Under the pieces are notes generated by a model. The model worked only from the letters and a program-made list of their open reading frames with translations, was not told the origin of the DNA and did no database searches. DNA of 64,000 nt, from IMG/VR virus record IMGVR_UViG_3300025809_001850. The stretch is one strand, 5' to 3'. The position numbers and the translations under genes are program-made. This DNA is from a virus. Lineage: Duplodnaviria > Caudoviricetes. Position 1 is the stretch's first letter. Each line of letters starts with the position of its first letter. Positions 8,420-64,000 of the stretch are shown in pieces.

Positions 8420-8480
8420 TTAGTTAAAATCTATTTTATATTTATATTTATACTCATATATATTACCACACCACAACGAT

Positions 8481-19700: not shown

Positions 19701-19725
19701 TTTTTTACTTTTATTAGTGTATTAT
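19697..19725 (+). promoter_or_regulatory. sigma70-like promoter
   Basis: TTGATT (19697-19702), 17 nt, TATTAT (19720-19725) with TG extension. Confidence 0.5.
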
Positions 19726-19732
19726 TATTTTA

Positions 19733-20014: not shown

Positions 20015-20112
20015 TCATTAAATATACAATTTTCAAATTTTCAAAACATATTTATGATAAAAGTCAAACATTTCCAAAATTCAACCCATAACAACAAAGG
20101 AGACTATATAAG

Positions 20113-29200: not shown

Positions 29201-32200
29201 TTCATTGAAAGATGCTACTAAAGGTGGTTCATTACTTGATATGGACCTAGATAGTGAAATTAATAAATTAGAGGAACTTCAAAAAGATCAACATCAAAAT
29301 ATAGATTCAGTACTTTCGGCAATGGCGAACTTAACAAGTATGTCTAATAGTGGAGTGCTGAATACGATGGCTTCTGAAAACAAAACAGAACGATCATCTG
29401 CAATTTCTAACCTATATGATATGATGGCAAATCAGTTGCAAGGTAAGCAAGATAAAAGCCGACGTTTGTCCAAAAACGTCGGCATTGACAAGGCAACAAC
29501 CGCGGTAAACTCCTTGTCAACAGGTGGATTTGTAAGTGGACCTATGGGAAAAGACGTAATTCCTGCAATGTTAACGGACGGAGAGTATGTAATAAGAGCA
29601 GATGTTGCAAAAAACTGGCGAGGTTTTCTTGAGCATTTAAATACCAACGGCCACCTTGGATTGCATCGTGGTGGACCTGTAATGCTTGCTGACGGTGGTG
29701 CTCCTGGTGGGGGTTCTGGAGGAGGAGGAGGAGGAGGAGGGGGTGGTGGAAGTGGTCCTGATCTATCTGCAATGCTATCTCAGTTAAGTAAAAACAATGC
29801 AGAGGTACAGGGTATGTCACATATTTTTAGTGAAATTGTTGAGTCCGTCAAAAAAGCTAACGAAGAAGGAAAAACCGCAGAACAACTTCAAGCATTAATA
29901 AACATCAAAGTATCTGATATGCAGAAAATGTTAGATTCGGAACTTGAAATGCAGGGAGACTTACTTAATGTAACCACGAAGCGACTCGGACAACTGAAAG
30001 CAATGAAAGACCTAAAACTATCAGGAGTGCATGACGCAGTATTAGGAGCATTTACTGCGGTAGAAGACAAAATTGATGGAATTTTATCTAGCATACCGTT
30101 CGTTGGTTCTGCACTCGCAATGAGTATAAAAGCATCGACTGGTCCTGCTTTTGATGAACTAAGAGAAGGAGCATCTGAGGCATTTTTAGCTATGGCAGAT
30201 GAAATTAATAACAACGGTAGGGATATAGATAGTGCAATGGTTGTTGGAATGGATAGATTCAAAGAAAGTGCAACTAAAGCAGGAGAGCATATGGAAATGG
30301 TAGGTTCGTTTGCCAAAAAAATAGGTCCGGGTATGATAGCAGCCGGAGCAGCTGCTTTAGGTTTTGTTGCGTTATTAGGAATGGCATTAAAAAGATTTTT
30401 TGATTTAGAAGCAAAATCACTTGAATTTCGTCAAGAACTTGGATTGGCTGCATCGTCCACGAAACATATAGAATCAGCAGCTGCCGAGGTAAACCAAGAA
30501 ATGGCAGGATATGGTGTAAATCTTGATCAAGCATATGAAGCCGCAACTGCTTTAACAAAAGAACTTGGTTCTACAATGCTTGTTACCAAAGACCAAATAA
30601 AAATGGTTGCTATGATGAATGCAGGTTTAGGAATATCTGCGGATAGTGCAGTTGGTGTTTATGAAACCTTCAAAAATCTAAGTGGTGGTTCGTCTGAAGT
30701 TGCAAAGAATTTAAGTTTAACAACGGTAGCATTAAGTACCGCAGCGGGAGTTCCATTGGATCAAGTAATGGGTGACATCGCAGGAGCATCTGAAACAGTT
30801 TATGCAATGTCACAAGGAACAGGTGTAGAATTGGCAGTTGCCGCTATTGAAGCACGACGTTTAGGAACAAACATTGAAAGCATTTCAAGTTCAATGGAAT
30901 CTGCGCTTGATTTTGAAAGTAGCATTTCCAACGAAATGAAAATGGCAAGTATGCTTGGACGTCATATAAGCATGGATGCAATGCGACAGGCTGCATTTGC
31001 AGGTGACCAAGTGAAGTACATGGAAGAACAACAAAAGGTGATGGGTGAGATTGGTGATTTATCTGAAATGAATATGCACCAAAGAAAATCCATTGCAGCT
31101 GCTATGGGAATGGAAGTTGGTGAGTTGATGAAAATGCAAACTCAAACCAAAGCATTGGCTGCATTAGAAAATGGAACAGTTGCACAAAAAGAAGCACTTG
31201 CTAAATATCAAAAACAAAGAAATGCCGCGTTGAATGGAGAAACAAAAAGTCTTGAAGAACAAGGCATGGAAATTCTCAAGCAACAAAATGCAGAAAATGT
31301 AAAAGCAGATATAATGGCAAAGATTAATTCATTAATGACGGATCTAGGTGAAGTATTGCTACCTGTAATTCAAGCAGGTTTTAAAATACTAATGCCTATA
31401 TTGGATGCAATATTCTTTGTACTTAAAGGAGTAGTTAAGGTTGTTGATTTTATTCTTACACCATTTACATTGATTGCTGACGTAATATCTGCAATAAATG
31501 ATGATTCGGATGCGTTGAAAGCACGTTTCGATGGAATTGTTCCGACATTAATTACTATATCAGGAGTAATCGCAGGCATAGGAGCATTATTTTTAGGCAT
31601 GGGCCCAATGATTGGTAAATTATTTAGTGGTATGGTGACCGGTGCAAAGAAAGCATTTGGTTTCATGCAAAAAGGAGCAAAGGGTGCATTTGGTATGTTA
31701 ACTGGAAAAGATGGAGCTCCTACTGGAGCAGATGTAACTGATAAAATAAAAGGAATGTTCGGTGGTGACAAAACAAAGAGTGGTGATCTAGTTCCTGATG
31801 TTGATCCAAAAAAGGGTGACAAATTTAAAAAGTTCTTAGATGCTTTCAACAAAATTGATATGTCAAAAATTGTTAAAGCTGCAGCTGCACTATTAATATT
31901 ATCCGGTGCGTTGTGGGTCTCGGCGAAAGCATTCCAAGAATTTTCCAAAGTTAGTTGGGATGGTGTAGCAAAAGGAATTATAGGATTAACTGCACTTGTT
32001 GTAGCTGCAAAGTTCTTAGAAAAAGGTTCAACATCTATGATAAAAGGAGCAGCTGCAATTGGAATTCTTGGTCTTGCATTGTTGCCCGCTGCATTGGCAT
32101 TCCAGATGTTTAGTGATGTTAGTTGGGGAGGAGTATTAGCAGGAATGATTGCTCTTGGGGCGTTGGCAGTTGTAGCAATGGTTCTTGGAAATCTTATTGT

Positions 32201-33398: not shown

Positions 33399-33435
33399 TC
33401 TTTAAAAAAAATATATAGTTATATTTATATATAAC

Positions 33436-35976
33436 ATGGCTACACCTAGTTGGATTTCAAATATGTTTCCCGATCTCTTTAGTAACGGAGGACCAAAACC
33501 TAAGCCAAACGGAGAATTCACAGAGTTTACTGATCAAAGCAGTAGAACTAGTATGAAGTCAGGACGTGGATCAATGGAAGAAAAACTTGATCGTGGTCAA
33601 ACTATATATCGTGACGGAGCTCCGGTTCCTGGAGGAACATCAAAAAGTATCGATGACCAAACAAGAAATTTAGATGACAGAGGTACAGGTCAAGGTGTTA
33701 ATTTTTTCGGATATGGAAATACAACAAAGAAAAACCCATTTCTAAGTGGAAAACGTTCTGATGAATTGAATATAACCACAAACGCCAATTCAACTGGCCA
33801 GGTGGAAATCGGTGGATTTACCACAAAAAGCACTCCAATGATGGATTCTGATTATGGAAACGGAAATGTAAATTCCGCATCTGAGAATAGTTTTTATCGT
33901 AATAAAATGGATGTTACGAAATATGGAGATCAATACAAAGCACTTGGTAATCCGAATATAATTAGACTTACTCTTGGAGGTGAAGCAACAGAGAGACAAG
34001 AAGTTAAACCAGCAATAAACGGTGACCCACTTGGTTCAGTTCCACGGAAACTACCAAACTCAGATACGCAATTGGCAGGTCGTGGTAAAGGTGGTGGAGA
34101 TGCGTGGTTGAGCAAGTATTATTTTGATCAAACATATGGTGATCCTTATTCTCCTGTTAACATTGAGTCAAAAGTTGCGTATCCTGCACAAGGAAATGTT
34201 GCATCTGATAAATATATAACTCGTTTGCAAAATACTACCAACGAATCTCTTGATAACATTAGTGTCAGTAAACTAGGTGGACAACTTGATAAGTCATCGG
34301 GTGGAGGTAAAAACCAATCTTCGTCTGAAAAAAATATCATTCGTACGGTTACAATGAGTGGTACATTACCTGCACATAAAGGTGGAGGTATGGTATCAGG
34401 TGCATTGCAAATTGATAGTGGTAGTTTGTCTAACGCATCTCCGTTGTTGTCTGGACGAAGTGATATATCACCTGAACTAAACAAAAATTTTAAGGACATG
34501 GTATCAAACGGATTGTATGATACTCCAACAAGTGAAGGAAGAGACGGTAGTTCCGATAACTTAATTAACGGAAAACTTGACAAACTTCCTAATGATAAGC
34601 AGTTTGCTTCTAAAATTTCATCTAGACTCGGCATGGGTCTCGATGCTAGACGAAATGCTCCGTATCATCCCAATCCATCGAAACCACCCAACATACCTGG
34701 ACAAGACGAACTCACTCCTAATTCAGAAGAAAATTCACTTCCAAGAAGCAAGCAAATTTCGTATGTTGATGGTGTAGGTAAATCAACGGGAACCGTAAGT
34801 CTGGAAGATTCACTGGAACAATTCAATAAAGATTATAGTCAACGATTAAAAAGTATAGGAGAACTAAATTCACAAGATGATTTGAAAGTTTCTAATGACA
34901 TCAAAAATTTAGTTGATTTAAAAAAATTCGCAGATGACTCGTTTGAGAGAAGAACCAAAGAAGGACCAAGTTCGGGTGCTGAAGTTAAAACTTATGGTCA
35001 AAGATTTTATGATAATCCACTTCATTTAAACAAACGAAAACTTCCAAATTATAGTGGAGTTCCTAGTGGAGAAAACCCAGTAGACAATCCGAGAAAAGAC
35101 CCATTTAATATAAGAGGAGTGCTTGACGCAGAAAATCATTCATTATCAGCTGAACCAGATTTCGCATCGGAGGATTTTATTCCTTTGTATTTCCATGACT
35201 TGGTAAATAAAAAATATATCCCGTTTCGTGCATTGATACAAGGTACAACCGATCAATCTGATAGTAAGTGGTCTTCTACTCAATATTTAGGCCGTGCAGA
35301 CGAAGTTCATGTATACACAGGATTTACACGAACTCTGAGTATAGATTTTCAAGTAGTTGCACTTAGTGTTGAAGAACTACATCCAATGTGGCAACGAATA
35401 AATTATATGGTCGGTTTAACACATCCTGCCAAATACACAGAACATGATTTCATCGTTCCTCCATTCGTGAGATTTAATTTGGGTGACATATACAGAAATC
35501 AACCTGTACTGATCACATCAGTTTCAACCTCGATTCCGTCTGAAGTATCATGGGAACTTGTAAACAATGAAAAAAATAATGGAACACTCGAAAGAAATAA
35601 ATACGAATACGCAAACGGAGATATTAAACGAAAAGATGTCAAGGTGGCAAGATATCCAACTTCGTGTAATTTGCAAGTTTCAATGATAGTATTACAAAAA
35701 CATAGTCCCGAAACAAAGCAAAATCACTTTGGAGATAGTCCACTGCATAGTGATGGTAAAGGAAATTCTACCTTCAATGAAACTTTATCAACTTACACAG
35801 AAACATCTAAGGCTACACCTCCAAGTAAAGACGAACAAAGTTCTAGAAGTCGTGGACTAACGGCAGACACAGATGCAAAATCACAACGCAGTGCAGACGA
35901 ACGAGCAGGTGCGTTGTCAAAAAGTTCTAGAAGACAAGCACTTCAAAATTCTCTCGGTGGTCCTTTTAATTTATGA
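33436..35976 (+). CDS. baseplate/tail-tube initiator-like protein with long low-complexity N-terminus
   Basis: C-terminal FIPLYFHDLVNKKYIPFRA...YLGRADEVHVYTGFTRTLSIDFQVVA tube-like fold pattern; ATATTTAT at 33421-33428. Confidence 0.6.
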   Translation: MATPSWISNMFPDLFSNGGPKPKPNGEFTEFTDQSSRTSMKSGRGSMEEKLDRGQTIYRDGAPVPGGTSKSIDDQTRNLDDRGTGQGVNFFGYGNTTKKNPFLSGKRSDELNITTNANSTGQVEIGGFTTKSTPMMDSDYGNGNVNSASENSFYRNKMDVTKYGDQYKALGNPNIIRLTLGGEATERQEVKPAINGDPLGSVPRKLPNSDTQLAGRGKGGGDAWLSKYYFDQTYGDPYSPVNIESKVAYPAQGNVASDKYITRLQNTTNESLDNISVSKLGGQLDKSSGGGKNQSSSEKNIIRTVTMSGTLPAHKGGGMVSGALQIDSGSLSNASPLLSGRSDISPELNKNFKDMVSNGLYDTPTSEGRDGSSDNLINGKLDKLPNDKQFASKISSRLGMGLDARRNAPYHPNPSKPPNIPGQDELTPNSEENSLPRSKQISYVDGVGKSTGTVSLEDSLEQFNKDYSQRLKSIGELNSQDDLKVSNDIKNLVDLKKFADDSFERRTKEGPSSGAEVKTYGQRFYDNPLHLNKRKLPNYSGVPSGENPVDNPRKDPFNIRGVLDAENHSLSAEPDFASEDFIPLYFHDLVNKKYIPFRALIQGTTDQSDSKWSSTQYLGRADEVHVYTGFTRTLSIDFQVVALSVEELHPMWQRINYMVGLTHPAKYTEHDFIVPPFVRFNLGDIYRNQPVLITSVSTSIPSEVSWELVNNEKNNGTLERNKYEYANGDIKRKDVKVARYPTSCNLQVSMIVLQKHSPETKQNHFGDSPLHSDGKGNSTFNETLSTYTETSKATPPSKDEQSSRSRGLTADTDAKSQRSADERAGALSKSSRRQALQNSLGGPFNL

Positions 35977-41608: not shown

Positions 41609-43717
41609 ATGGTTATGGAAAATAAAAAGAGACACGAAAAGCAAACAGAAAAGAGTAAAAACACTCTCGAATCGTTAATTAGGTCTGACAATGATGATTC
41701 AGTAAAAACATACGAATCTTTGAATTGGACAGGTACTTTTTGGGATTACATTGAATTGTTGGAGCAGAATCCAAAGATTGCTCGTAATTCGTATCAAAGA
41801 TTGTACGACATGGTTATGTCACATGGTACAGAAGAATTTACATATTGTAAACGTAAACACATCAAATATAAATTCTTTGAAGGTCTCGGCGATATTTCTA
41901 TTTATGGTCTAGAAGAAAACTTGATGGAGTTTATGGATATTTTAAAAAGTGCAAGTCGGCACTACGGACCAGAACGAAGAGTTATATTATTACATGGACC
42001 TGTAGGTAGTAGTAAGTCAACAATTGTAACTGCACTCAAGAAGGGGCTAGAGCATTACACCCGAACCGAAGAGGGGTCATTGTACTCTTTTAGTTGGAAA
42101 CTAACTGATAAAGACGGCAATGACATCGTAGTTCCATGTCCGATGAACGAAGAACCTTTAAAACTTTTACCTGACGAGGTTCGTACTGAAATTATCAGTA
42201 ATCTAAATTCCAAAGCATCTGATGACGATTACAAATTGAAATTGGATGGTGCGTTGAATCCAGTAAACGAGTTTTACTACAATCAACTCATGGAAATGCA
42301 CAAAGGTGACTATCGTAAAGTGCTTGAACATATTGTTATACGTCGTGTGTCTCTATCCGAAAAGAATCGTGTCGGCATTGGTACGTTCCAACCAAAAGAT
42401 GAAAAATCACAAGACGCAACTGAACTCACAGGTGATATCAATTACCGAAAGTTAGCAGAGTATGGAAGTGAAAGTGATCCACGTGCATTTGATTTTGATG
42501 GTGAGTTTTTGGTTGCTAATCGTGGACTTATTGAATTTCAAGAAATTCTCAAGTTACAAACCGAGTTTCTATATGATCTTCTTGGAGCAACTCAAGAGCA
42601 TCGTGTTAAACCACGTCGTTTCAACCAAGTACCAATTGACGAAGTTATTCTTGGTCATACTAACAATGCTGAGTTTGAAAAGTTAACCAACAATAAGTTC
42701 ATGGAAGCACTTCGTGATAGAACAATTAAAATCGACATTCCTTATCTTTTGAAGATTGACGAAGAAAAGAAGATTTATGATCACTTCTATAATACAAGCA
42801 CCGTAAACAAGCATATTGCTCCTCATACAACTTATTTGGCTGCGTTATTTGCAGTTGTAAGTCGTTTAGAAGAAAGTTCCAAGCAAGATATGGGTATCAT
42901 TCAGAAAGCAAAACTTTACAACGGCCAAAGTGTGCATGGATTCACAGATGAACACGTAAAGGAAATGCAAGAAGAATCTCCGAAAGAAGGATTATATGGT
43001 GGAGTTTCTGCACGATTTATTCAGAATCAGTTTTCCAACGCAATCGTCAATCCTAGAATGGGTGCAAAAAGTTTGAATCCGTTTATGTTGTTTGCTCAAA
43101 TTCGAGAAGGCCTTAAAAGTTATAGTGGATTCAATAACGAAGATGACAAAAAGAATATGATGGAACGACTTGAGTCTGTAGAAAAAGAATACGATAGAAT
43201 TGTTAAACGAGAAGTTCAACAAGCACTTAGTAGCAGTGAAGAAGCAATAAAAGCAACTTGTACAAACTATATTGATAACATCGTTGCGTATATTCAAGAC
43301 GAAAAAGTTACTAATCTGGTTACCGGTAAAGAAGAAACTGCAAACGAACAACTTATGCGTAGCATAGAAGAAAAAATTGGTATTTCCAATGGCATGAAGG
43401 ACGATTTCCGTAGAGAGATTATGAATTACATGGGTGGACTTGCCGCTAAGGGTAAAGAGTTTAAATACGACTCTAACGAGCAATTATACAAAGCACTTGA
43501 AAAGAAGTTGTTTGAAGATACCAAAGATAGCATAAAGTTATCTGCTCTTGCTCAAGATACCGCAACTGTTGTTGACAAAGAACTTCTTGAAAAGATTGAT
43601 GCTTTGAAGCAACGACTTATTACTTCATTTGGATATGATACAGATAGTGCTTCAGATGTTCTTACTTATGTTGGAAGTATTTTTGCGAGAGGTGATGCGG
43701 ACGAAGACGAAGATTAA
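41609..43717 (+). CDS. prkA: PrkA/YeaG family AAA+ 'serine protein kinase'
   Basis: ARNSYQRLYDMV, Walker A LLHGPVGSSKST, FQPKDEKSQDATELTG, SDPRAFDFDGEFLVANRGLIEFQEILK, MEALRDRTIKIDIPY; start could be 41615. Confidence 0.93.
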   Translation: MVMENKKRHEKQTEKSKNTLESLIRSDNDDSVKTYESLNWTGTFWDYIELLEQNPKIARNSYQRLYDMVMSHGTEEFTYCKRKHIKYKFFEGLGDISIYGLEENLMEFMDILKSASRHYGPERRVILLHGPVGSSKSTIVTALKKGLEHYTRTEEGSLYSFSWKLTDKDGNDIVVPCPMNEEPLKLLPDEVRTEIISNLNSKASDDDYKLKLDGALNPVNEFYYNQLMEMHKGDYRKVLEHIVIRRVSLSEKNRVGIGTFQPKDEKSQDATELTGDINYRKLAEYGSESDPRAFDFDGEFLVANRGLIEFQEILKLQTEFLYDLLGATQEHRVKPRRFNQVPIDEVILGHTNNAEFEKLTNNKFMEALRDRTIKIDIPYLLKIDEEKKIYDHFYNTSTVNKHIAPHTTYLAALFAVVSRLEESSKQDMGIIQKAKLYNGQSVHGFTDEHVKEMQEESPKEGLYGGVSARFIQNQFSNAIVNPRMGAKSLNPFMLFAQIREGLKSYSGFNNEDDKKNMMERLESVEKEYDRIVKREVQQALSSSEEAIKATCTNYIDNIVAYIQDEKVTNLVTGKEETANEQLMRSIEEKIGISNGMKDDFRREIMNYMGGLAAKGKEFKYDSNEQLYKALEKKLFEDTKDSIKLSALAQDTATVVDKELLEKIDALKQRLITSFGYDTDSASDVLTYVGSIFARGDADEDED

Positions 43718-43737
43718 TAGTCAACGAATACATCATT

Positions 43738-44892
43738 ATGCCATCACGCAGAATCAGAGAAGACCACGGTGAGTACAGAGATATCGTCAAGGGAAATGTT
43801 GACGAGAAACTCAAAAAGCACATCAAAGGTGGTCAAAAAATAACACGAAGAGGAAAAGACTTTGTTGTTGTTCGTGTACCTCATGTAGAACTTCCAAGTT
43901 TTCGCTACGGAGCTCCATCCGATGGTGGTGGTATTGGTAACGGAGAGGCTGGTATAGGAGACGAGGTAGGTGAAGGACCACCTCAAGGGCAGGGTCAAGG
44001 TGGCCAACCTGGTGAAGGTGGTGAAGGAGAGGGTGACGGTCACGACATTGATGTGGGTATAAGCATGGATTCTTATTTTGATATGATCGGTGAAGAACTG
44101 CGTCTACCAAATCTTCTGCCCAAAGAAAATGGGGAAATGATCAAAGAAAAAATCAAATGGAATCGTATTGCTAAAGTTGGAAACAATAGTTTATTACACA
44201 AACGAAAAACTCTAAAAAATGCATTCAAACGATTAATAGCATCAGATGATTATGATCCTAAAGATTTGTCTAATTTTTATCCTATTAAAGATGACAAAGA
44301 GTTTAGAAGTTGGAGTTCAGTTGAAGTACCTGATACAAACGCCGCAATCTTTTTTGTATCGGATATATCTGCAAGTATGGATGATGAAAAACGTTCGTTG
44401 ATTCGTGAATTATGTTGGTATCTTGAAAATTGGATTGAACGATTTTACCAAGAAACTCAAATCAAGTATATCGTCCACGATCACCATGCACAAGAAGTTG
44501 ATAAAGAAAAGTTCTACAAATACCAAAGTGGAGGAGGAACAAAAATCAGTAGTGCATTTGAATTGGTAAACGATGTAATTGAAAAAGCATTTCCCTTGAA
44601 TGAATGGAACATTTATGTATTTTATTTGAGTGATGGAGAAAACTTTGGTTCTGACAATGATTTGTGTGTTGAACATTTAAAAAAAATGCAGACTTATGCA
44701 AATCTAGTAGGAATAACAGAAGTTAAAGCAGTAAGAAGTTGGGCAACATTTCTTCCCCATATTCAATCACAACTTACAACGGGGAATCTAGACCCTAACA
44801 AGATAGTAACCGCATCAATGCAGGATGGTTCGGATGTTTTTAAAACACTTCAAAAGTTATTAACACCTGCCGGAGAAGAAGTACCTTTTTAA
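43738..44892 (+). CDS. yeaH: YeaH/YhbH (DUF444) vWA-domain protein
   Basis: Gly-rich GQGQGGQPGEGGEG linker, LRLPNLLPK, MIDAS DISAS, GGGTKISSAF, YLSDGEN. Confidence 0.92.
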   Translation: MPSRRIREDHGEYRDIVKGNVDEKLKKHIKGGQKITRRGKDFVVVRVPHVELPSFRYGAPSDGGGIGNGEAGIGDEVGEGPPQGQGQGGQPGEGGEGEGDGHDIDVGISMDSYFDMIGEELRLPNLLPKENGEMIKEKIKWNRIAKVGNNSLLHKRKTLKNAFKRLIASDDYDPKDLSNFYPIKDDKEFRSWSSVEVPDTNAAIFFVSDISASMDDEKRSLIRELCWYLENWIERFYQETQIKYIVHDHHAQEVDKEKFYKYQSGGGTKISSAFELVNDVIEKAFPLNEWNIYVFYLSDGENFGSDNDLCVEHLKKMQTYANLVGITEVKAVRSWATFLPHIQSQLTTGNLDPNKIVTASMQDGSDVFKTLQKLLTPAGEEVPF

Positions 44893-44896
44893 TATT

Positions 44897-46462
44897 ATGG
44901 GAATTGCATGGGAAGTAGATAGTTTAAACGAAGGAGTATGTCCAGAGTTGGCAGCTCTTATACCTGAATGCTTAAAGGCGTGTTACGATAATGGACTTGA
45001 TCCATATCCGTTGTGTATTGAAGAATTTGATGCAGATGAAATAGTTGAGATTGCCGCTTATGGTGGTTTTCCTGTTCGTTATCCACACTTTAATTTCGGA
45101 CAACAATTTGAGCAATTGCATCATCAGTATCACTCTGGTATGGGCAAGATTTATGAGATGGTTGTAAATACCGATCCAACTTATATGTATCTTCAACGAA
45201 ACAATCCTATCGTTGATAATCTTACCGTTGTTGCACACGCAACTGCACATAGTGATTTTTTCAAAAACAACATTATGTTCAAGCACACGAATCGTAATAT
45301 GATGAATGTGATGGCAAATCATAGTGATAAAATTCGTATGTATATGGATCGGTTTGGTCGCAAAAAAGTTAAAGACTTTTTGAATGCAGCTCTTGCAATT
45401 GATGATTTAATTGATCCATCACTTTGTTATCGTGAAAGTAATTTAAAGAAAGCAACTAAATTCAACTTTGAAGATCGTCAACCAAGAGAACACGTTTCTC
45501 GTATGGAAACGAAAGAATATATGCAGAAGTATGTTAATCCTGCACATTATATTGAAAAGCAAAGACGAGAGCGTGAAGAACGAACAAAGTTAGCAGAAAA
45601 CAAATTTCCACTTCGACCTGAACGAGATATTATGTTGATGATTATCAACCATTGTCGTTTAGAACCCTGGCAACAGAATGTGCTTAGTATGATTCGTGAT
45701 GAATCTATTTATTATCGTCCACAAGGAATGACAAAAGTTCTCAACGAAGGATGGGCAAGTTATTGGGATTCTTATATCATGGCAAGTTGTAACTTTGCGG
45801 GAGACGAAGGAATCTTTGATTACGCAAAACACCACGCAGGAGTTCTTGGTGGAAAATACAATATGAACAATCCATATAAACTTGGAAATACTTTATTGCG
45901 TGACATCGAAGATCGTTGGAACAAAGGAAAGTTTGGTAAAGAATATGAAAATTGCGACAACGGAGATGAAAAAAGATATTGGAACAAACATCTTGGTCTT
46001 GGTCGTGAAAAACTTTACGAAGTTCGTGAAATGTATAATGATGTAACATTTCTTAATGAATTTTTCACAAAAGATTTCTGTGAAAAATATGAATACTTTG
46101 AATATGCACTTGATAAATCAACCAACAAATATGTAGTTGTAAGTAAAGACTACAAATCAATCAAACAGAAGTTAGTTGAACGTCATGTTAATATGGGACG
46201 ACCTGTCATATACATGGAAAACATGAAATACAAAAATACAGAAATTTTACTTAGACACGATTTTGATGGCAGACCACTTGATATTAAATACGCAACGGGT
46301 ACAATGGCATACCTTCATGAGATTATGAAAAAACCAATTAACATCCTTACATACGATGTAGAATCAGAAGGATATGGAAATGAAAAAGAGTCAGTTGAAG
46401 TAGAAGTTCGTTATCGTTACAATAATGGAGAAATGAAACGATACGAAGGTGGTAAAGTTTGA
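44897..46462 (+). CDS. spoVR: SpoVR/YcgB family protein
   Basis: GGFPVRYPHFNFG, GKIYEMVVN, VVAHATAHSDFFKNN, TKVLNEGWASYW, NPYKLG. Confidence 0.93.
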   Translation: MGIAWEVDSLNEGVCPELAALIPECLKACYDNGLDPYPLCIEEFDADEIVEIAAYGGFPVRYPHFNFGQQFEQLHHQYHSGMGKIYEMVVNTDPTYMYLQRNNPIVDNLTVVAHATAHSDFFKNNIMFKHTNRNMMNVMANHSDKIRMYMDRFGRKKVKDFLNAALAIDDLIDPSLCYRESNLKKATKFNFEDRQPREHVSRMETKEYMQKYVNPAHYIEKQRREREERTKLAENKFPLRPERDIMLMIINHCRLEPWQQNVLSMIRDESIYYRPQGMTKVLNEGWASYWDSYIMASCNFAGDEGIFDYAKHHAGVLGGKYNMNNPYKLGNTLLRDIEDRWNKGKFGKEYENCDNGDEKRYWNKHLGLGREKLYEVREMYNDVTFLNEFFTKDFCEKYEYFEYALDKSTNKYVVVSKDYKSIKQKLVERHVNMGRPVIYMENMKYKNTEILLRHDFDGRPLDIKYATGTMAYLHEIMKKPINILTYDVESEGYGNEKESVEVEVRYRYNNGEMKRYEGGKV

Positions 46463-58227: not shown

Positions 58228-58638
58228 ATGGAGAACGATGAAAATATAACAGAACCTTCTGACGAAAAAAGGTTTCTTAGATTTTTACCAACCAATCCGT
58301 TGCGACATCTTAAACTACTTGTAGTAGTTCTATTACATTGGGCAGTTGTAATTGGCAACTTTAGTGCATTTTTTATACTTGCAGTTCAGGGATTAACACC
58401 GATTGGTTATCCTTGGTATGTATGTTTACCTTTATGTTCGTTTATTATATTAATTTCATTTTCAAGAGTATTAGATTGCCCAATGACACGTTATGAAAAT
58501 AAATTAAGAGTGCAGATAGGTAAACCAACTATCAAGGGATTTATTGGTCATTATTTTCTGAAACCGTATGTTCGTAGGAAAATAAGAAAAGCACGTGAGA
58601 TTAGAAAATCAAAAGAGCAAAATGAAAATAAAACTTAA
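58228..58638 (+). CDS. DUF2784-like membrane protein
   Basis: Two hydrophobic helices, then CPMTRYENKLRVQIG...GFIGHY; ATATTTAT at 58215-58222. Confidence 0.65.
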   Translation: MENDENITEPSDEKRFLRFLPTNPLRHLKLLVVVLLHWAVVIGNFSAFFILAVQGLTPIGYPWYVCLPLCSFIILISFSRVLDCPMTRYENKLRVQIGKPTIKGFIGHYFLKPYVRRKIRKAREIRKSKEQNENKT

Positions 58639-59698
58639 AGATGCAATTGAATTTGCGAAGTGGGTATTTGAAAAAAATCAAGTACCAAGCAAATATTCAA
58701 GTGTATGTGCAGATGTATTATTAAGTGCTGATGAACTTGGATTTAAGTCTCACGGATTAAGCAGACTTGGTTATTATATAAAACGAATTCAAGATGGAGT
58801 GATTGATGTAAATGCAACTCCTGAAATTGTGCGTGACAACAAGGCTTGTGTAACGATTGATGGTCACAATGCTCTTGGTCAAATCGTTGGTAAATACGCA
58901 ATGAATCAAGCAATTGCAAAAACTCAAGAACATGGAATCAGTTGCGTTGCAGTTAAAAATTCTTCACATTACGGAATCGCAAGTTATTATAGTCGGTATG
59001 CAACTGATCATAATTTAGTGGGAATGAGTTTTACAAACGCACGACCTGCGGTTGCACCATTCAACGGAGCAGAACCAAAAATGGGTACGAATCCATATGC
59101 AATCGCATTTCCATCCGATGAAAAATATCCATTTAGTATTGATTGTGCAACATCAGTTTATCAAAGAGGTGACTTGGAATTAATGGCAAGAAAAACACCA
59201 GACAACTATGTTCCAAATTGTGCGATAGTTTCTCAAAATGAAAATCTTACATTCGAAAGATCACTGCGTTGGTTGGAACGGGGAATAGCAGCGTTGACAC
59301 CAATTGGGGGCCATAAAGGTTCTGGATTAAGTATTGCAATAGAATTAATGTGTTCGGCATTTCAAAGTGGTGCTTATATGAGCAAACTAAGTGGACTTTA
59401 CGAAGGAGATACCAAAAACCCAAATTATGATATTGGTCATTTCTTTATTTGCATTGATCCAGAAAACTTTGCAGACTTAAAAGATTTCAAAAAAAATGTT
59501 GGTGATGTGATGCGTGAAATAAAATCAAGCAACAGTATTAAAGGTGAAGAAATTTTAGTTCCAGGAGAAGTAGAATATAATACATCTATCGATGTTCATA
59601 AAAACGGAATCGAAATTTCAGATGTGTTGCTTGAAGAATTAAAAAAACTTGGATTTGATTCATGGCAAAAGCAACACACGATAAACAATTTGAAATAG
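58622..59698 (+). CDS. Ldh_2 family (type-2 malate/L-lactate, AllD/ComC/DpkA-like) NAD(P)H oxidoreductase
   Basis: ADELGFKSHGLSRL, IDGHNALGQ, VAVKNSSHYGIA, GTNPYAIAFP, GGHKGSGL, GHFFICIDP, VPGE; likely start at ATG 58622. Confidence 0.9.
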   Translation: MKIKLKDAIEFAKWVFEKNQVPSKYSSVCADVLLSADELGFKSHGLSRLGYYIKRIQDGVIDVNATPEIVRDNKACVTIDGHNALGQIVGKYAMNQAIAKTQEHGISCVAVKNSSHYGIASYYSRYATDHNLVGMSFTNARPAVAPFNGAEPKMGTNPYAIAFPSDEKYPFSIDCATSVYQRGDLELMARKTPDNYVPNCAIVSQNENLTFERSLRWLERGIAALTPIGGHKGSGLSIAIELMCSAFQSGAYMSKLSGLYEGDTKNPNYDIGHFFICIDPENFADLKDFKKNVGDVMREIKSSNSIKGEEILVPGEVEYNTSIDVHKNGIEISDVLLEELKKLGFDSWQKQHTINNLK

Positions 59699-59913
59699 TC
59701 ATTGCAATATTAGGAATAATAGGAGGTGGAATAATTCCTTTTCCTGAACTGATCGGTTGGGGGTTTGTTGTTTTTGCGATTGTTAATTTTTTAAGTATCT
59801 TCTTTTTCGCAGGAAGAAAAATGTATTGGCTGGCAGCTCTTGCGTTTTATTTTGTGGTGGTAGATTCAATTGGAATATGGATTCATGTTATAGAAAAACA
59901 TTTTCTAAATTAA
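59662..59913 (+). CDS. small membrane protein
   Basis: 83 aa with about three hydrophobic segments. Confidence 0.55.
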   Translation: MAKATHDKQFEIVIAILGIIGGGIIPFPELIGWGFVVFAIVNFLSIFFFAGRKMYWLAALAFYFVVVDSIGIWIHVIEKHFLN

Positions 59914-59947: not shown

Positions 59948-59977
59948 TTGACGATATGTACAAATTTGTGATATATT
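59948..59977 (+). promoter_or_regulatory. sigma70-like promoter upstream of beta-oxidation operon
   Basis: TTGACG (59948-59953), 18 nt, TATATT (59972-59977) with TGn extension. Confidence 0.55.
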
Positions 59978-59990
59978 TAATGTAACGGTT

Positions 59991-61238
59991 ATGAAAAAAA
60001 ATGTATATTTAGTAGATGGTACTCGGACTCCTTTTTGTAAAATGGGTACGACCTTCGCAAATACTTCAGCTGCAGACCTCGGTGTTTCTGCAACAAAGGC
60101 ACTATTTGCAAAGATAAATTTGAATCCGGATGTTATTGACGAAAGTGTAATGGGATGCGTATGTCAACCTGCTGATACTGCTAACATCACACGTGTAATT
60201 GCACTCAAATCGGGAGTACCTAAATGTGTTCCTGCGTATACGGTTCATCGTAATTGTGCAAGTGGTTTTGAATCAATTACACAAGCATCTGATAAAATTA
60301 ATGCTGATCGTGGAAGTGTATATTTAAGTGGTGGAACAGAGAATATGACACAAGCACCATTTTTGTACTCTAAAAGTGCAGTTGACAAATTTACCAAGTT
60401 GAGTAAGTGTAGAACATTTCGTGATCGTCTTCATACGATATTAAGTTTTCGTCCAAAAGATTTCGCACCAATAATTAGTTTACGATTAGGATTAAGTGAT
60501 ATTACCATTGGAATGAATATGGGTGAAACTGCTGAATTGATTGCACGAGAAAGTGGAGTGACACGATATCATCAAGATAAATTTGCGTTAGAATCTCATT
60601 TGAAAGCATTTGTAGCAATAGAAAAATTATCATCCGAGATTTCCCCATTTTATTTTACAGATGGAACATTTGTTGATGCCGACAACGGAATTCGTGGTGA
60701 ACAAAGTATGGGTGCTTTGGAAAAACTTAAACCTGTGTTTGATCGTAAACAAGGAACGGTAACTGCTGGCAATGCATCACAAATTACAGACGGAGCAGTA
60801 TCTTTATTGATTGCCGATGAAAAGGCAGTAAAGCAAAACAATTGGAATCCACTTGGTAGAATTTCAGCATATGCATACGCAGGTTGTGATCCTGAAAGAA
60901 TGGGATTGGGACCAGTATACGCAATTGAAAAAGTGTGCGAAGAAACTGGATACAAATTGAGTGACTTTGATTTAATTGAAATCAACGAAGCATTCGCTGC
61001 TCAAGTTCTTGCAGTTTGTAAACAACTCAAAAAAACCACAGACTTAGGTGAAGTTGATGATTCAATATTGAATGTCAATGGAGGAGCAATTGCTCTTGGT
61101 CATCCAGTTGGATCAAGTGGGTCACGCATCGCACTTACTACTTTGAAGGAACTTGAACGTCGTGGTGGTAAACGAGCATTAATTTCACTTTGTATCGGTG
61201 GAGGTCAAGGTGGTGCAATAATTTTGGAAAGAGATTAA
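59991..61238 (+). CDS. fadA: acetyl-CoA C-acyltransferase (3-ketoacyl-CoA thiolase)
   Basis: TVHRNCASG (catalytic Cys), VTAGNASQITDGA, NEAFAAQV, GAIALGHPVGSSG, SLCIGGGQG. Confidence 0.96.
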   Translation: MKKNVYLVDGTRTPFCKMGTTFANTSAADLGVSATKALFAKINLNPDVIDESVMGCVCQPADTANITRVIALKSGVPKCVPAYTVHRNCASGFESITQASDKINADRGSVYLSGGTENMTQAPFLYSKSAVDKFTKLSKCRTFRDRLHTILSFRPKDFAPIISLRLGLSDITIGMNMGETAELIARESGVTRYHQDKFALESHLKAFVAIEKLSSEISPFYFTDGTFVDADNGIRGEQSMGALEKLKPVFDRKQGTVTAGNASQITDGAVSLLIADEKAVKQNNWNPLGRISAYAYAGCDPERMGLGPVYAIEKVCEETGYKLSDFDLIEINEAFAAQVLAVCKQLKKTTDLGEVDDSILNVNGGAIALGHPVGSSGSRIALTTLKELERRGGKRALISLCIGGGQGGAIILERD

Positions 61239-61239
61239 T

Positions 61240-63315
61240 ATGAGCAATTCAATTAAACGAGAAGAATTTGGTGATGTTGTCACGATAACATTTGATCAAG
61301 AAAATTCAATTGCAAACGTATTCAATGAGAAAATGTTTTCGGAATTAAACGAACAACTTGATTTTATAGAAGATAATCAAGAATCAGTTAAAGGGGTTGT
61401 ATTTAATAGTGCAAAACCAAGTATCTTCATAGCAGGTGCTGATTTAAAATCATTTGCTGATGACCCATCACCTGAACGAATTTCACATTTAATAACTCTT
61501 GGTCAAAATACATTCAATCGAATTGAAGATTTACGAATTCCAAGTGTGGCCGCAATTCACGGTGCGTGTGTTGGTGGTGGATATGAGTTGGCACTTGCGT
61601 GTGACCATCGTGTTGCTACTTTAGATTCTGCAACTAAAATTGGATTACCTGAAACGATGCTTGGAATTATTCCTGCGTGGGGTGGATCAACAAGATTACC
61701 ACGAATGATTGGTTTACCTGGTGCAATGGGAATTATCCTTGCAGGTAAAATTGTTGTTCCAAAGTTGGCACTTAAACTCGGAATGGTTGATCGTGTAGTG
61801 TACAAAGAAAATTTAGATGCTTCTGCAAAAGCAATGTTGCTTAATGGCAAAAAGAAATACAAGTCTCATTTGTTAAATAGATTTCCGTTGAAATATATTG
61901 CCAAATCAAAAGCAATTAAGAATGTAATGAAAACAACAGGTGGAGTTTATCCTGCTCCATTAAAAGCAATTGATGTAATGATTAAGGGTCTTGGTTTAAG
62001 TCGTGACGAATCTTTAAAACTCGAAGAACAAGCATTCACGGAATTGCTCAACTCGGATGTAGCGAGTAATTTGGTCAACATATTTTTCCTGCAAGAACGA
62101 AGCAAAAAAACAAAAAGTGACAAAGAATTCAAAGTAAATAATACTGCGGTTATAGGTGCGGGAGTTATGGGAGCAGGAATCGCACAATGGATTAGTTCAA
62201 GAGGAATTAAAGTATTGCTTAAAGATATTAAACCAGAGTTTGTAGCAAAAGGAATTGCAAGCATAAACAAGTTGTACTCGGCAGCTGTCAATAAACGAGT
62301 AATGACCAAAGCAGAAGCATCTTCCAAGTTTAACAATGTTACACCAATCACGGAGTCATTGCCAATGAAGAACATTGACTTGGTGGTAGAAGCTGCAATT
62401 GAGCAACTTGATGTTAAACAGAATTTATTTGTGGAACTTGAAACACTTGTTCGTGATGATACAATTTTAGCAACTAACACATCAGCACTGAGCATCGTTG
62501 ATATTGCCGAGAAAATGCAACATAAAGAACGAGTTGTGGGTATTCACTATTTTAATCCTGTTCACAAAATGAAATTAGTGGAAGTGGTTCGTGGAGAATG
62601 TACAAGTGAAGAAACGATTCTTAAAGCAACTCAGTTTGTAAAGAAAACAGGTAAACTTCCTGTGATCGTAAAAGATTCACCTGGTTTTTTGGTAAATCGT
62701 ATTTTGATGCCTTATTTAATTGAAGCAGTAAATTTAGCAAATCACGGAGTTAGCATAGAACACACCGACAAACTTCTTCGTAAATTTGGAATGCCAATGG
62801 GACCATTTCGTTTGATTGACGAAGTTGGTGGTGATGTATGCCAACACGTTGCAGACGACTTATTAAATCGTCTTGAAACGAAGTTTCCAAATAGTAATCT
62901 TCTTAGACGAATGATTGAAGAAGGAAATCTCGGAAAGAAAACCGGCCAAGGATTTTACAAATACTCAAATGGAAAATCCAAGGGTGTGTGTGATGTTCCG
63001 GTGAATGATAACTTTAACACCGATTGTGAAAACGAAGAAATTGTTGATAGATTAATTTTAATTATGGTCAATGAAGCAATTCGTTGTTTACAAGAAAAAG
63101 TTGTAGAAAGTCCAAAAGATGTTGATTTTGGTATGATAATGGGAACAGGTTGGGCTCCGTTTCGTGGAGGACCTATTTCGTATTGTGATAATCTTGGTGC
63201 AGAAGAAGTTGTTAAAAAACTTAATAAACTTGCAACAAAAAACAAATACTTTGAACCATGTGAATTGTTGATTGAACACGCAAACAAAAATAAAAAATTC
63301 TACGGAGAAAAATAA
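61240..63315 (+). CDS. fadJ: multifunctional enoyl-CoA hydratase / 3-hydroxyacyl-CoA dehydrogenase (FadJ/FadB-type)
   Basis: FIAGADL, GGGYELALAC, GLPETMLGIIPAWGG (both crotonase Glu), VIGAGVMGAGIA, ATNTSAL, GIHYFNPV, PGFLVNRIL, PMGPFRLIDEVG. Confidence 0.96.
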   Translation: MSNSIKREEFGDVVTITFDQENSIANVFNEKMFSELNEQLDFIEDNQESVKGVVFNSAKPSIFIAGADLKSFADDPSPERISHLITLGQNTFNRIEDLRIPSVAAIHGACVGGGYELALACDHRVATLDSATKIGLPETMLGIIPAWGGSTRLPRMIGLPGAMGIILAGKIVVPKLALKLGMVDRVVYKENLDASAKAMLLNGKKKYKSHLLNRFPLKYIAKSKAIKNVMKTTGGVYPAPLKAIDVMIKGLGLSRDESLKLEEQAFTELLNSDVASNLVNIFFLQERSKKTKSDKEFKVNNTAVIGAGVMGAGIAQWISSRGIKVLLKDIKPEFVAKGIASINKLYSAAVNKRVMTKAEASSKFNNVTPITESLPMKNIDLVVEAAIEQLDVKQNLFVELETLVRDDTILATNTSALSIVDIAEKMQHKERVVGIHYFNPVHKMKLVEVVRGECTSEETILKATQFVKKTGKLPVIVKDSPGFLVNRILMPYLIEAVNLANHGVSIEHTDKLLRKFGMPMGPFRLIDEVGGDVCQHVADDLLNRLETKFPNSNLLRRMIEEGNLGKKTGQGFYKYSNGKSKGVCDVPVNDNFNTDCENEEIVDRLILIMVNEAIRCLQEKVVESPKDVDFGMIMGTGWAPFRGGPISYCDNLGAEEVVKKLNKLATKNKYFEPCELLIEHANKNKKFYGEK

Positions 63316-63317
63316 TT

Positions 63318-64000
63318 ATGAGTGAAATAGATACATCAAAAATGTCCAAGGGTAAAGCAGATGCCTTGGAAGCAGCTGAAGCTGCAAGAGATACCGGTAA
63401 AAAAGGTGTAAAAAGTTTTAGTGGTGGATTGTTCACCGGAGAAGCAAACTACGATTTGATTTATCCGTTTCCAAAACAAAAAGATGAAGACAAAGCAAAA
63501 GGAGATGATTTTCTTGGACAACTAAATGAAGTAATAGATAAGCACGTTGATGCAGATGCAATTGATCGTGAAGGAGAAATTCCTGACAAAGTATTTGAAG
63601 AACTCGCAAAGATTGGTGCATTTGCAATTAAAATTCCAACTGAATATGGTGGTCGTGGATTGTCACAAACCAACTACTCAAGAGCGGCAATGAGATTAGG
63701 AGAAGTGTGTGGTAATATTACTGCATTAGTATCAGCACATCAAAGTATCGGTGTTCCTCAACCACTGTTGTTATTTGGAACAGACGAACAAAAGAAAAAG
63801 CATCTTCCTCGTTTTGCTAAAGGTGAAATTAGTGCATTTGCGTTGACCGAAGAAACTGTAGGAAGTGATCCTGCTCAAATGGCAGTTTATGCAGAATTGT
63901 CGGAAGATAAAACTCATTATGTTTTGAACGGAGAAAAACTTTGGTGTACAAACGGAGTTAAAGCAAGTGTGATTATTGTAATGGCAAGAACACCTGATAC
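63318..64000 (+). CDS. fadE: acyl-CoA dehydrogenase (3'-truncated by window end)
   Basis: Absent from the ORF track. My translation starts MSEIDTSKMSKGKADALEAAEAAR and contains IPTEYGGRGLS, LVSAHQSIG, FGTDEQKKKHLPRFAKGEISAFALTEETVGSD and LNGEKLWCTNG. Confidence 0.93.
   Translation, partial: MSEIDTSKMSKGKADALEAAEAARDTGKKGVKSFSGGLFTGEANYDLIYPFPKQKDEDKAKGDDFLGQLNEVIDKHVDADAIDREGEIPDKVFEELAKIGAFAIKIPTEYGGRGLSQTNYSRAAMRLGEVCGNITALVSAHQSIGVPQPLLLFGTDEQKKKHLPRFAKGEISAFALTEETVGSDPAQMAVYAELSEDKTHYVLNGEKLWCTNGVKASVIIVMARTPD

What the first reader, a model, noticed from the sequence alone, without database searches (positions are those of the whole stretch)
59948..64000. Phage-encoded fatty-acid beta-oxidation operon covering all four reactions
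Seen: thiolase, hydratase/3-hydroxyacyl-CoA dehydrogenase and acyl-CoA dehydrogenase genes spaced 1-2 nt apart under a sigma70-like promoter. All checkable catalytic residues are intact, and the AT-rich codon style matches the phage core genes. Knowledge: these three proteins make up the complete FadE-FadB/J-FadA/I spiral; beta-oxidation genes are known from eukaryotic giant viruses, but I know of no well-characterised complete operon in a bacteriophage. Inference: the phage burns host lipids or stored acyl chains for acetyl-CoA, reducing power and ATP, possibly together with the PrkA starvation module, to replicate in nutrient-starved cells.
Basis: partly seen in the sequence, partly recalled or inferred. 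Interest (0 to 1): 0.88.

Follow-up and report, generated by a model that had tools for sequence, protein, structure and literature searches.

The report
Huge marine phage carries beta-oxidation operon
A widespread group of very large marine phages carries an intact, conserved three-gene operon for all four core reactions of fatty-acid beta-oxidation, apparently captured long ago from Verrucomicrobiota, which I found reported for no cultured phage and, per a 2022 review, for no giant virus.

Summary
Window 59991-64000 holds thiolase, a fused enoyl-CoA hydratase/3-hydroxyacyl-CoA dehydrogenase (FadB/FadJ-like) and an acyl-CoA dehydrogenase, 1 and 2 nt apart. The dehydrogenase is cut by the window end; it is 616 aa and VLCAD/ACAD9-like in identical contigs. 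Catalytic residues are intact.

The DNA is truly phage. The window is a T4-like myophage region from a genome of at least 332 kb. In related contigs the operon is followed by more metabolic genes and then phage-type genes, all on one strand.

The same synteny recurs in at least eight independent assemblies (66-100% aa identity). dN/dS is 0.05-0.19, and codon use matches the phage core genes (RSCU r = 0.96).

All three gene trees place a monophyletic phage clade inside Verrucomicrobiota, where the same three-gene order occurs (46-64% aa identity, GC3 0.59-0.86 against 0.20-0.24). This fits one old capture of the whole operon.

No FadD, FadL or ETF was found in about 105 kb around the operon, so the phage depends on the host for activation and electron transfer.

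The physiological role, boosting lipid catabolism for energy and acetyl-CoA, is inferred. RNA-library contigs cover the genes but do not prove transcription.

Virome reads for fadB were reported in 2013; I found no complete operon described in a phage genome.

The parts
59948..59977 (+). Promoter-like site TTGACG-18 nt-TATATT with a TG extension, 14 nt before the thiolase start codon
   Evidence: 10 of 12 matches; the site count in the region is not above chance. Both hexamers are identical in 5 of 6 related phage contigs (alignment A1). Function not tested.
59991..61238 (+). 3-ketoacyl-CoA thiolase, 415 aa, FadI / trifunctional-enzyme beta-like
   Evidence: Pfam Thiolase_N and Thiolase_C. TIGR01930 scores 420 bits against a cut-off of 240.55, and the protein aligns full-length in one piece to FadI models. 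Cys (NCASG), Asn (NEAF), His (GHP) and Cys (CIGGGQG) are aligned to 4E1L/4C2J. dN/dS is 0.05-0.15.
61240..63315 (+). Fused enoyl-CoA hydratase / 3-hydroxyacyl-CoA dehydrogenase, 691 aa, FadJ/FadB / trifunctional-enzyme alpha-like
   Evidence: Pfam ECH_1, ECH_2, 3HCDH_N and 3HCDH. Best solved relatives are human TFP alpha (2.6e-130), P. fragi FadB and E. coli FadJ. GGGYE and PE glutamates, the GAGVMGAGIA NAD site, the GIHYFNPV His and the LVEVV Glu are all present. dN/dS is 0.05-0.19.
63318..64000 (+). Acyl-CoA dehydrogenase, first 227 of 616 aa (cut by the window end), VLCAD/ACAD9-like
   Evidence: Pfam Acyl-CoA_dh_N and _M. The full gene in L008/L009 is identical over the 227 aa. It has Acyl-CoA_dh_N/M/1 plus ACAD9-ACADV_C. 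Best solved relatives are human ACAD9 (2e-86) and VLCAD, with the catalytic Glu of IFEG present. dN/dS is 0.07-0.14.
59662..59913 (+). Conserved small ORF (83 aa, no family) between the Ldh_2 gene and the operon promoter
   Evidence: an 82-83 aa gene is called at the same place in L008, L009, L011 and L092. No Pfam or NCBIfam match. Function unknown; membership in the operon is doubtful.
58622..59698 (+). Ldh_2-family oxidoreductase (358 aa), upstream neighbour and first gene of the metabolic island; not a beta-oxidation enzyme
   Evidence: Pfam Ldh_2 4.9e-102. The best NCBIfam match is L-sulfolactate dehydrogenase, 270 bits, below its cut-off of 500. Conserved at this position in all related contigs.

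Best explanation
This is a genuine auxiliary metabolic operon of a very large T4-like marine phage (genome at least 332 kb). It encodes a FadI/HADHB-like thiolase, a FadJ/HADHA-like hydratase-dehydrogenase and a VLCAD/ACAD9-like acyl-CoA dehydrogenase. Together these are the enzymes for the four core reactions of long-chain fatty-acid beta-oxidation. The three genes were captured together from a Verrucomicrobiota-type operon, long enough ago to be fully recoded to phage codon use. They have since been inherited vertically under purifying selection in a cosmopolitan phage clade. Inferred mechanism: the genes are transcribed from their own conserved promoter and translated as a coupled unit. The products add capacity to the host's beta-oxidation during a long infection, turning acyl-CoA into acetyl-CoA, NADH and reduced flavin. 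They would rely on host acyl-CoA synthetase for activation and on host ETF and ETF-quinone oxidoreductase to reoxidise the dehydrogenase. The operon opens a wider catabolic island (Ldh_2, L-serine dehydratase, HGLS, aldehyde dehydrogenase and arginine succinyltransferase genes in relatives). This suggests the phage fuels replication from lipids and amino acids. Shown: gene identity, intact catalytic residues, phage context on both sides, conservation, selection and origin. Inferred: complex formation, substrate chain length, direction of flux and benefit to the phage.
For: Phage context: TerL, portal, Gp23, sheath, gp32, UvsX and RNR lie upstream on the same strand. In the 80-kb IMG/VR contig G001 the operon sits mid-contig. 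It is followed by serine dehydratase, a methylase, aldehyde dehydrogenase, M20, AstC-like, AstA and AstB. After those come a Dda/RecD-like helicase, DNA methylases, a TROVE-like protein, IF3 and peptide deformylase, all on one strand. The same RNR-small / DUF2784 / Ldh_2 / small ORF / thiolase / FadB / ACAD / serine dehydratase order occurs in JGI, ENA and IMG/VR assemblies from different samples, at 66-100% FadB identity. More than 100 protein clusters at 80% identity or above exist in metagenomes. Fourteen DNA runs hold most of the stretch, and run holders come from 18 studies. Depth is even across 50-64 kb in two independent runs, and one contig crosses into the thiolase with no differences. 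Function is retained: catalytic residues are intact and dN/dS is 0.05-0.19 with dS 0.2 to above 2. Origin: FadB, thiolase and ACAD trees each give a monophyletic phage clade (SH-aLRT 100) inside a Verrucomicrobiota clade (99-100). Six Verrucomicrobiota MAGs have the same contiguous gene order, and one cellular relative has FadL and FadD just upstream. Amelioration: GC3 is 0.20-0.24 against 0.59-0.86 in the cellular homologues. Contigs from metatranscriptome libraries of three studies lie on thiolase, FadB and the FadB/ACAD junction at 90-95% identity. Physiological logic: host fatty-acid degradation rises in phage-infected cells under P limitation (PMC11170926).
Against: No biochemical or infection data exist. 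No FadD, FadL or ETF was found in the window, G001 or three related fragments, so the pathway cannot run alone; the rest of the genome could not be read. The RNA-library contigs are relatives at 90-95% identity, and DNA carry-over was not controlled. IMG/VR labels G001 and two related fragments 'provirus'. NCBIfam equivalog cut-offs for FadJ/FadB, FadI and FadE are not reached. Rows for the trees were sampled by similarity to FadB, and the trees are quick searches. The host is not identified directly.
Confidence: 0.72

Rival explanations
1. The phage-borne enzymes are active but serve another flux: short or branched acyl-CoAs from amino-acid catabolism (for example the lysine, glutaryl-CoA, crotonyl-CoA route), or the reverse direction to supply 3-hydroxyacyl or acyl units for envelope or glycan modification, rather than burning host long-chain lipids.
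For: The neighbours are amino-acid catabolic genes: serine dehydratase, HGLS, aldehyde dehydrogenase, AstA/AstB and a class-III aminotransferase. No FadD or FadL is found nearby. The four reactions are reversible in principle (established biochemistry).
Against: All three proteins are most like long-chain machinery: TFP alpha/beta, FadJ/FadI and VLCAD/ACAD9, not glutaryl-CoA or butyryl-CoA dehydrogenases. The nearest cellular operon sits beside FadL and FadD.
Confidence: 0.15
2. The operon is bacterial DNA: a host flank of an integrated prophage, or an assembly chimera joined to a phage contig.
For: IMG/VR classes G001, G003 and G004 as 'provirus'. The genes are typical cellular metabolism. 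GenBank 'phage' records with fad genes turned out to be bacterial contigs.
Against: The same junctions occur in at least eight independent assemblies, with phage genes on both sides in G001. Depth is even in independent DNA runs. Codon use is identical to phage core genes, and the nearest cellular homologues are only 46-64% identical with very different GC. The phage copies are monophyletic and co-diverge with synteny.
Confidence: 0.03
3. The genes are phage-borne passengers without benefit to the phage, kept by chance or decaying.
For: The ACAD is split in the 569-kb long-read contig L011. RNR and aldehyde dehydrogenase genes are split in G001.
Against: dN/dS is 0.05-0.19 over dS up to saturation in three genes. 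All catalytic residues are kept and the order is conserved down to 66-68% protein identity. The splits occur in single assemblies and may be sequencing errors.
Confidence: 0.05

Closest known systems
Verrucomicrobiota thiolase-FadB-ACAD operons (MAG loci L016, L017, L018, L024, L025, L026; also L093 with FadL-FadD upstream)
   Same: Same three genes, same order and contiguous. They are the nearest cellular relatives in all three trees (thiolase 54-59%, FadB 46-50%, ACAD 57-64% identity).
   Different: The phage copies form their own clade, have GC3 0.20-0.24 against 0.59-0.86, lack adjacent FadL/FadD, and sit between phage RNR genes and a phage metabolic island.
Mitochondrial trifunctional protein (HADHA/HADHB) with VLCAD/ACAD9, and E. 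coli FadJ-FadI
   Same: These are the best solved-structure matches: TFP alpha 2.6e-130, FadJ 1.9e-126, FadI 1e-72, TFP beta 2.7e-65, ACAD9 2.1e-86, VLCAD 5.4e-73. Domain order is shared and catalytic residues are conserved.
   Different: NCBIfam equivalog cut-offs are not reached. Complex formation, membrane binding and chain-length preference are untested. E. coli FadE is a different, 814-aa type, with only a weak match.
fadB and fadL gene families in Pacific Ocean viromes (Hurwitz, Hallam and Sullivan 2013, PMC4053976)
   Same: Virus-associated fatty-acid oxidation genes in the ocean, read as energy generation during infection.
   Different: That evidence was at read and gene-family level, without genome context. 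Here a complete three-gene operon sits in assembled phage genomes, with origin, selection and synteny shown.
Giant-virus lipid genes (Prymnesium kappa virus RF01 and marine Mimiviridae; review PMC9270025)
   Same: Viral acyl-CoA dehydrogenase and acyl-CoA synthetase are proposed to reprogram host beta-oxidation.
   Different: [quoted passage not shown] This phage has both plus the dehydrogenases, but no synthetase was found near the operon.
Flavobacterium phage vB_FspM_immuto, Microcystis phage Mel-JY01, uncultured huge phage LR756508 (nearest capsid relatives)
   Same: T4-like Gp23 capsid at 51-54% identity.
   Different: None of them appears among the listed fad-gene matches in GenBank phage records (9 and 7 lower-ranked records were not listed). 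One search found no nucleotide match to the operon in that collection.

Membership tests
Thiolase (acetyl-CoA C-acyltransferase, Pfam Thiolase_N/C, TIGR01930) | Both thiolase domains above the curated cut-offs | tested here: met
   201.6 and 151.9 bits against cut-offs of 26.4 and 27. TIGR01930 scores 420.5 against 240.55.
Thiolase (acetyl-CoA C-acyltransferase, Pfam Thiolase_N/C, TIGR01930) | Catalytic Cys nucleophile, Asn, His and second Cys | tested here: met
   NCASG, NEAF, GHP and CIGGGQG are aligned to the same motifs of 4E1L and 4C2J.
FadI (equivalog models NF006516, TIGR02446) | Score above the equivalog cut-off | tested here: not met
   345.6 against 560, and 276.6 against 711.55. The protein is FadI-like in its full-length single-piece alignment only.
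Fatty-oxidation complex alpha subunit (FadB/FadJ/HADHA) | N-terminal crotonase domain fused to 3HCDH_N and 3HCDH domains | tested here: met
   ECH_1 at 12-199, 3HCDH_N at 302-479, and 3HCDH in 2 stretches from 482.
Fatty-oxidation complex alpha subunit (FadB/FadJ/HADHA) | Two hydratase glutamates, a Rossmann GxGxxG motif, and the dehydrogenase His-Glu pair | tested here: met
   alignment to human TFP alpha (6DV2) shows GGGYE, PE, GAGVMGAGIA, GIHYFNPV and LVEVV. The assignment of catalytic roles comes from established knowledge of FadB and HADHA.
Fatty-oxidation complex alpha subunit (FadB/FadJ/HADHA) | NCBIfam equivalog cut-off for FadJ or FadB | tested here: not met
   FadJ scores 623.3 against 869, and FadB 596.8 against 870.
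VLCAD/ACAD9-type acyl-CoA dehydrogenase | ACAD N, middle and C domains plus the extra ACAD9/ACADV C-terminal domain, about 600 aa | tested here: met
   on the full 616-aa gene of L008, L001 and L003. The window holds only residues 1-227, identical to L008.
VLCAD/ACAD9-type acyl-CoA dehydrogenase | Catalytic glutamate base in the FEG motif | tested here: met
   IFEGSSEI is aligned to IFEGTNEI of ACAD9 (8PHE).
VLCAD/ACAD9-type acyl-CoA dehydrogenase | Long-chain substrate preference, ETF as electron acceptor, membrane association | not testable with these tools
   Needs enzyme assays.
Phage auxiliary metabolic gene cluster | Lies inside a phage genome with phage genes on both sides | tested here: met
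   (upstream, in the window). (downstream, in related contig G001).
Phage auxiliary metabolic gene cluster | Cell-derived, conserved among related phages, under purifying selection | tested here: met
Phage auxiliary metabolic gene cluster | Expressed during infection | tested here: inconclusive
   contigs from RNA libraries cover the genes at 90-95% identity. There is no DNA-carry-over control and no strand information.
Self-sufficient beta-oxidation pathway (FadL, FadD, ACAD with ETF, FadBA) | Acyl-CoA synthetase, transporter and ETF encoded together with the core enzymes | tested here: not met
   no AMP-binding, ETF, FadD or FadL match in the window, G001-G004 or other related loci. The remainder of the genome of at least 332 kb could not be searched.

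The most novel reading that the evidence does not exclude
A cosmopolitan clade of huge marine phages, probably infecting Verrucomicrobiota, encodes the first complete viral core of beta-oxidation: acyl-CoA dehydrogenase, hydratase, hydroxyacyl-CoA dehydrogenase and thiolase. It is built like the mitochondrial VLCAD plus trifunctional-protein system. It opens a roughly 25-30 kb phage catabolic island for fatty acids, serine and arginine that, together with PrkA-YeaH-SpoVR, lets the phage run the infected cell's energy metabolism largely on its own enzymes.
Probability: 0.45. Interest if true: 0.78.

Novelty: new member of a known kind. Interest (0 to 1): 0.66.

Why it matters
Phage auxiliary metabolic genes are usually single bottleneck enzymes. 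Here a whole catabolic spiral has been kept for a long evolutionary time in an abundant, globally distributed marine phage clade. This implies that lipid-derived energy or acetyl-CoA limits replication of very large phages in nature.

It gives a concrete, clonable test case for virus-driven rerouting of marine lipid carbon: three genes, with complementation possible in E. coli fad mutants. It offers a host clue (Verrucomicrobiota) for an uncultured huge-phage lineage. It also shows that automated 'provirus' or 'host region' calls can misjudge such metabolic islands.

According to a 2022 review, not even giant viruses were known to carry the hydratase and thiolase steps.

Tried and rejected
- **Own genome:** no whole genome is held for the window, so ETF and FadD could not be sought genome-wide.
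- **GenBank phages, nucleotide search:** nothing found.
- **GenBank phages, protein searches:** hits were only mislabelled bacterial contigs such as 'Acinetobacter phage MD-2021a' and Salmonella WGS records. The 'Microcystis phage MaAM05' acdA sits among fliM, pomA, murJ and bioD. None was accepted as a phage precedent.
- **IMG/VR exact-word search for the window's own contig:** it found only G001.
- **Capsid relatives in IMG/VR:** all are fragments of 115 kb or less. Five of them lack FadB, which is uninformative because they may not reach the locus.
- **Atlas look-ups of Ldh_2 and serine dehydratase:** gave family names but no host signal.
- **Promoter scan:** the number of sigma70-like sites equals chance. 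Only the conservation of the one site carries weight.
- **Two 'joints' in run X12:** each has 21-letter sides and was dismissed as spurious.
- **Complex prediction of thiolase with FadB:** not run. The pair exceeds the size limit uncut, and the claim is only an inference from homology.
- **Literature searches:** searches for a described phage beta-oxidation operon, for PrkA/SpoVR as phage AMGs, and for jumbo phages of Verrucomicrobiota found nothing relevant.

Full report
**1. What is in the sequence**

The stretch 59991-64000 holds three co-oriented ORFs.
- 59991-61238 (415 aa) has both thiolase domains.
- 61240-63315 (691 aa) has an N-terminal crotonase domain fused to the NAD-binding and C-terminal 3-hydroxyacyl-CoA dehydrogenase domains.
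- 63318-63998 is open at the window end and has the N-terminal and middle acyl-CoA dehydrogenase domains.

The junctions read TAA-T-ATG and TAA-TT-ATG, each with a GGAG-like motif upstream. A TTGACG-18-TATATT site with a TG extension lies at 59948-59977. Such sites are no more frequent here than in shuffled sequence. However, this one is identical in both hexamers in five of six related phage contigs, while their coding DNA has diverged to dS 0.4-1.0. The one caveat is that only a third of the third gene lies in the window.

**2. It is phage DNA**

All large ORFs of the window lie on the + strand. They include:
- structural genes: terminase large subunit, T4-type portal, prohead protease, Gp23 capsid, tail sheath and baseplate protein;
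- the PrkA-DUF444-SpoVR trio and a DNA methylase;
- replication genes: gp32, a RecA/UvsX-like protein, a 5'-3' exonuclease, a DnaB-like helicase and both ribonucleotide reductase subunits.

The capsid is 51-54% identical to Flavobacterium phage immuto, Microcystis phage Mel-JY01 and an uncultured 484-kb phage. The scan's index places other windows of the same piece up to 268 kb before this one, so the genome is at least about 332 kb.

**3. It is not a chimera or a host flank**

No whole genome is held for the window, so I used relatives.
- IMG/VR holds three contigs with FadB at 81-90% identity.
- In the 80-kb contig G001 the operon lies mid-contig. Downstream, on the same strand, come the full 616-aa acyl-CoA dehydrogenase, L-serine dehydratase, a DNA methylase, an HGLS fragment, aldehyde dehydrogenase, an M20 peptidase, a class-III aminotransferase, AstA and AstB.
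- After those come a DUF2201 metallopeptidase, a RecD/Dda-like helicase, further methylases, a TROVE-like protein, IF3, peptide deformylase and repeat proteins.
- The protein database holds more than 100 clusters at 80-95% identity, from JGI, ENA, Tara and Logan assemblies.
- Those I inspected have the same order: RNR small subunit, DUF2784, Ldh_2, small ORF, thiolase, FadB, ACAD, serine dehydratase. They include a 131-kb JGI contig identical to the window, a 569-kb long-read contig and a 68%-identical contig.
- In two independent DNA runs, contigs cover 50-64 kb at even depth, and one crosses from the small ORF into the thiolase without a difference.

IMG/VR's 'provirus' label for G001 and two related fragments is best explained by automated host-region calls on the metabolic island.

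**4. The enzymes look active and are under selection**

- The thiolase keeps the Cys nucleophile, Asn, His and second Cys. It passes TIGR01930 and aligns in one piece to FadI and trifunctional-enzyme beta models.
- The fused protein keeps both hydratase glutamates, the GxGxxG site and the dehydrogenase His and Glu. Its best solved relatives are human trifunctional protein alpha, P. fragi FadB and E. coli FadJ.
- The full acyl-CoA dehydrogenase is identical to the window's 227 residues. It is most like human ACAD9 and VLCAD, has their extra C-terminal domain, and keeps the catalytic Glu.
- Across six phage contigs, dN/dS is 0.05-0.19 for all three genes.
- NCBIfam equivalog cut-offs for FadI, FadJ/FadB and FadE are not reached. 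I therefore call the proteins FadI-like, FadJ-like and VLCAD-like rather than members of those equivalogs.

**5. Origin**

The nearest cellular FadB homologues among species-representative genomes are Verrucomicrobiota MAGs at 46-53% identity. In six of these, thiolase, FadB and a 616-aa-type ACAD are contiguous in the same order, at 54-59%, 46-50% and 57-64% identity. One metagenomic relative has FadL and FadD directly upstream.

Trees of all three proteins give a monophyletic phage clade (SH-aLRT 100) inside a clade that otherwise consists of Verrucomicrobiota (99-100). The phage genes have GC3 0.20-0.24 and an RSCU correlation of 0.96 with phage core genes. The cellular homologues have GC3 0.59-0.86. 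The simplest reading is one old capture of the whole operon, followed by vertical inheritance.

This also hints at a verrucomicrobial host. An unchecked note of this scan (e1-5363781) reports PVC-type DUF1549/DUF1553/DUF1501 genes and an acyl-ACP synthetase elsewhere in the genome. I could not verify that.

**6. What is missing**

No AMP-binding acyl-CoA synthetase, FadL or ETF is found in the window, in G001 or in three further related fragments. The Pfam scans of the larger ORFs show none either. As far as can be seen, the phage supplies the four core reactions but depends on the host for fatty-acid activation and for reoxidising the flavoprotein.

**7. Expression**

Six metatranscriptome runs hold small shares of the stretch. 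In four of them, contigs at 90-95% identity lie on Ldh_2, the thiolase and FadB, and one 1.4-1.6 kb contig spans the FadB/ACAD junction. These are relatives, and DNA carry-over was not controlled. This is suggestive, not proof.

**8. Mechanism and rivals**

The best-supported reading (about 0.72) is an auxiliary metabolic operon that adds long-chain beta-oxidation capacity to the infected cell. It would yield acetyl-CoA and reducing power for a large phage with a costly, long infection. The catabolic neighbours fit this. So does published evidence that host fatty-acid degradation rises in phage-infected cells under P limitation (PMC11170926).

Rivals:
- another substrate or direction of flux (0.15);
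- passenger genes without benefit (0.05);
- host DNA or chimera (0.03).

**9. Novelty**

fadB and fadL gene families were reported from Pacific Ocean viromes at read level in 2013 (PMC4053976). [quoted passage not shown] The listed fad-gene matches in GenBank phage records are bacterial contigs or unannotated, unverified fragments; none is a verified phage genome, and my literature searches found no description of such an operon. I rate it a new member of a known kind (phage auxiliary metabolic genes). It is of above-average interest because the set is complete, old, conserved and widespread.

Noticed in passing
L004-L005 (G001 contig 27394-33927) and L011:18760-22079: Relatives of this phage carry AstA, AstB, a class-III aminotransferase, aldehyde dehydrogenase and an M20 peptidase in a row. 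This is most of the arginine succinyltransferase pathway. An HGLS (2-oxoadipate dioxygenase/decarboxylase) gene and, in L011, a sulfotransferase lie alongside.
   Followed up: partly
L009:6738-8090, L001:13944-15296, L003:13929-15281: An L-serine ammonia-lyase (450 aa, passes TIGR00720) directly follows the acyl-CoA dehydrogenase in every related contig. In the window's genome it would lie just beyond base 64000.
   Followed up: partly
window 41609-46462: A complete PrkA, DUF444 (YeaH) and SpoVR (YcgB) trio with strong Pfam scores. The nearest phage PrkA relatives are an uncultured 595-kb phage (49%) and Thermus phages (about 32%).
   Followed up: partly
window 58622-59698: An Ldh_2-family oxidoreductase is conserved upstream of the operon. 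Its best model is L-sulfolactate dehydrogenase, but below the cut-off, so the substrate is unknown.
   Followed up: partly
L004 (G001 contig 6732-9207, 10752-12299); L003:17588-18217: Phage-encoded peptide deformylase, translation initiation factor IF3, a TROVE/Ro-like DUF2828-DUF7788 protein and a NusG-like protein lie downstream of the metabolic island.
   Followed up: no
window 26247-33398: A 2383-aa ORF with no Pfam match lies in the tail/baseplate region, followed by 846-aa and 1027-aa ORFs also without matches.
   Followed up: no
L011:12082-13630; L001:1169-3327 and 19525-20896: Single assemblies show split genes: the ACAD in the 569-kb long-read contig, and the RNR large subunit and aldehyde dehydrogenase in G001. 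These may be sequencing errors or real frameshifts.
   Followed up: no
GenBank records CAKLQH02/CAKLQF02 ('Acinetobacter phage MD-2021a'), MW495066.1 (L096), AGRM01000003, AFYI01: Records filed as phages carry ordinary bacterial chromosome genes (fadB, fadJ, fadE, fliM, pomA, murJ, bioD). They look like bacterial contigs or contamination in the phage collection.
   Followed up: partly
G001, G003, G004 (IMG/VR): Fragments of this T4-like huge-phage clade are classed as 'provirus' by IMG/VR, probably because of their many cell-like metabolic genes.
   Followed up: no
L092:4640-5293: The most distant phage relative (68% FadB identity) has an extra DUF1796 gene inserted between the small ORF and the thiolase, so the promoter region differs there.
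   Followed up: no
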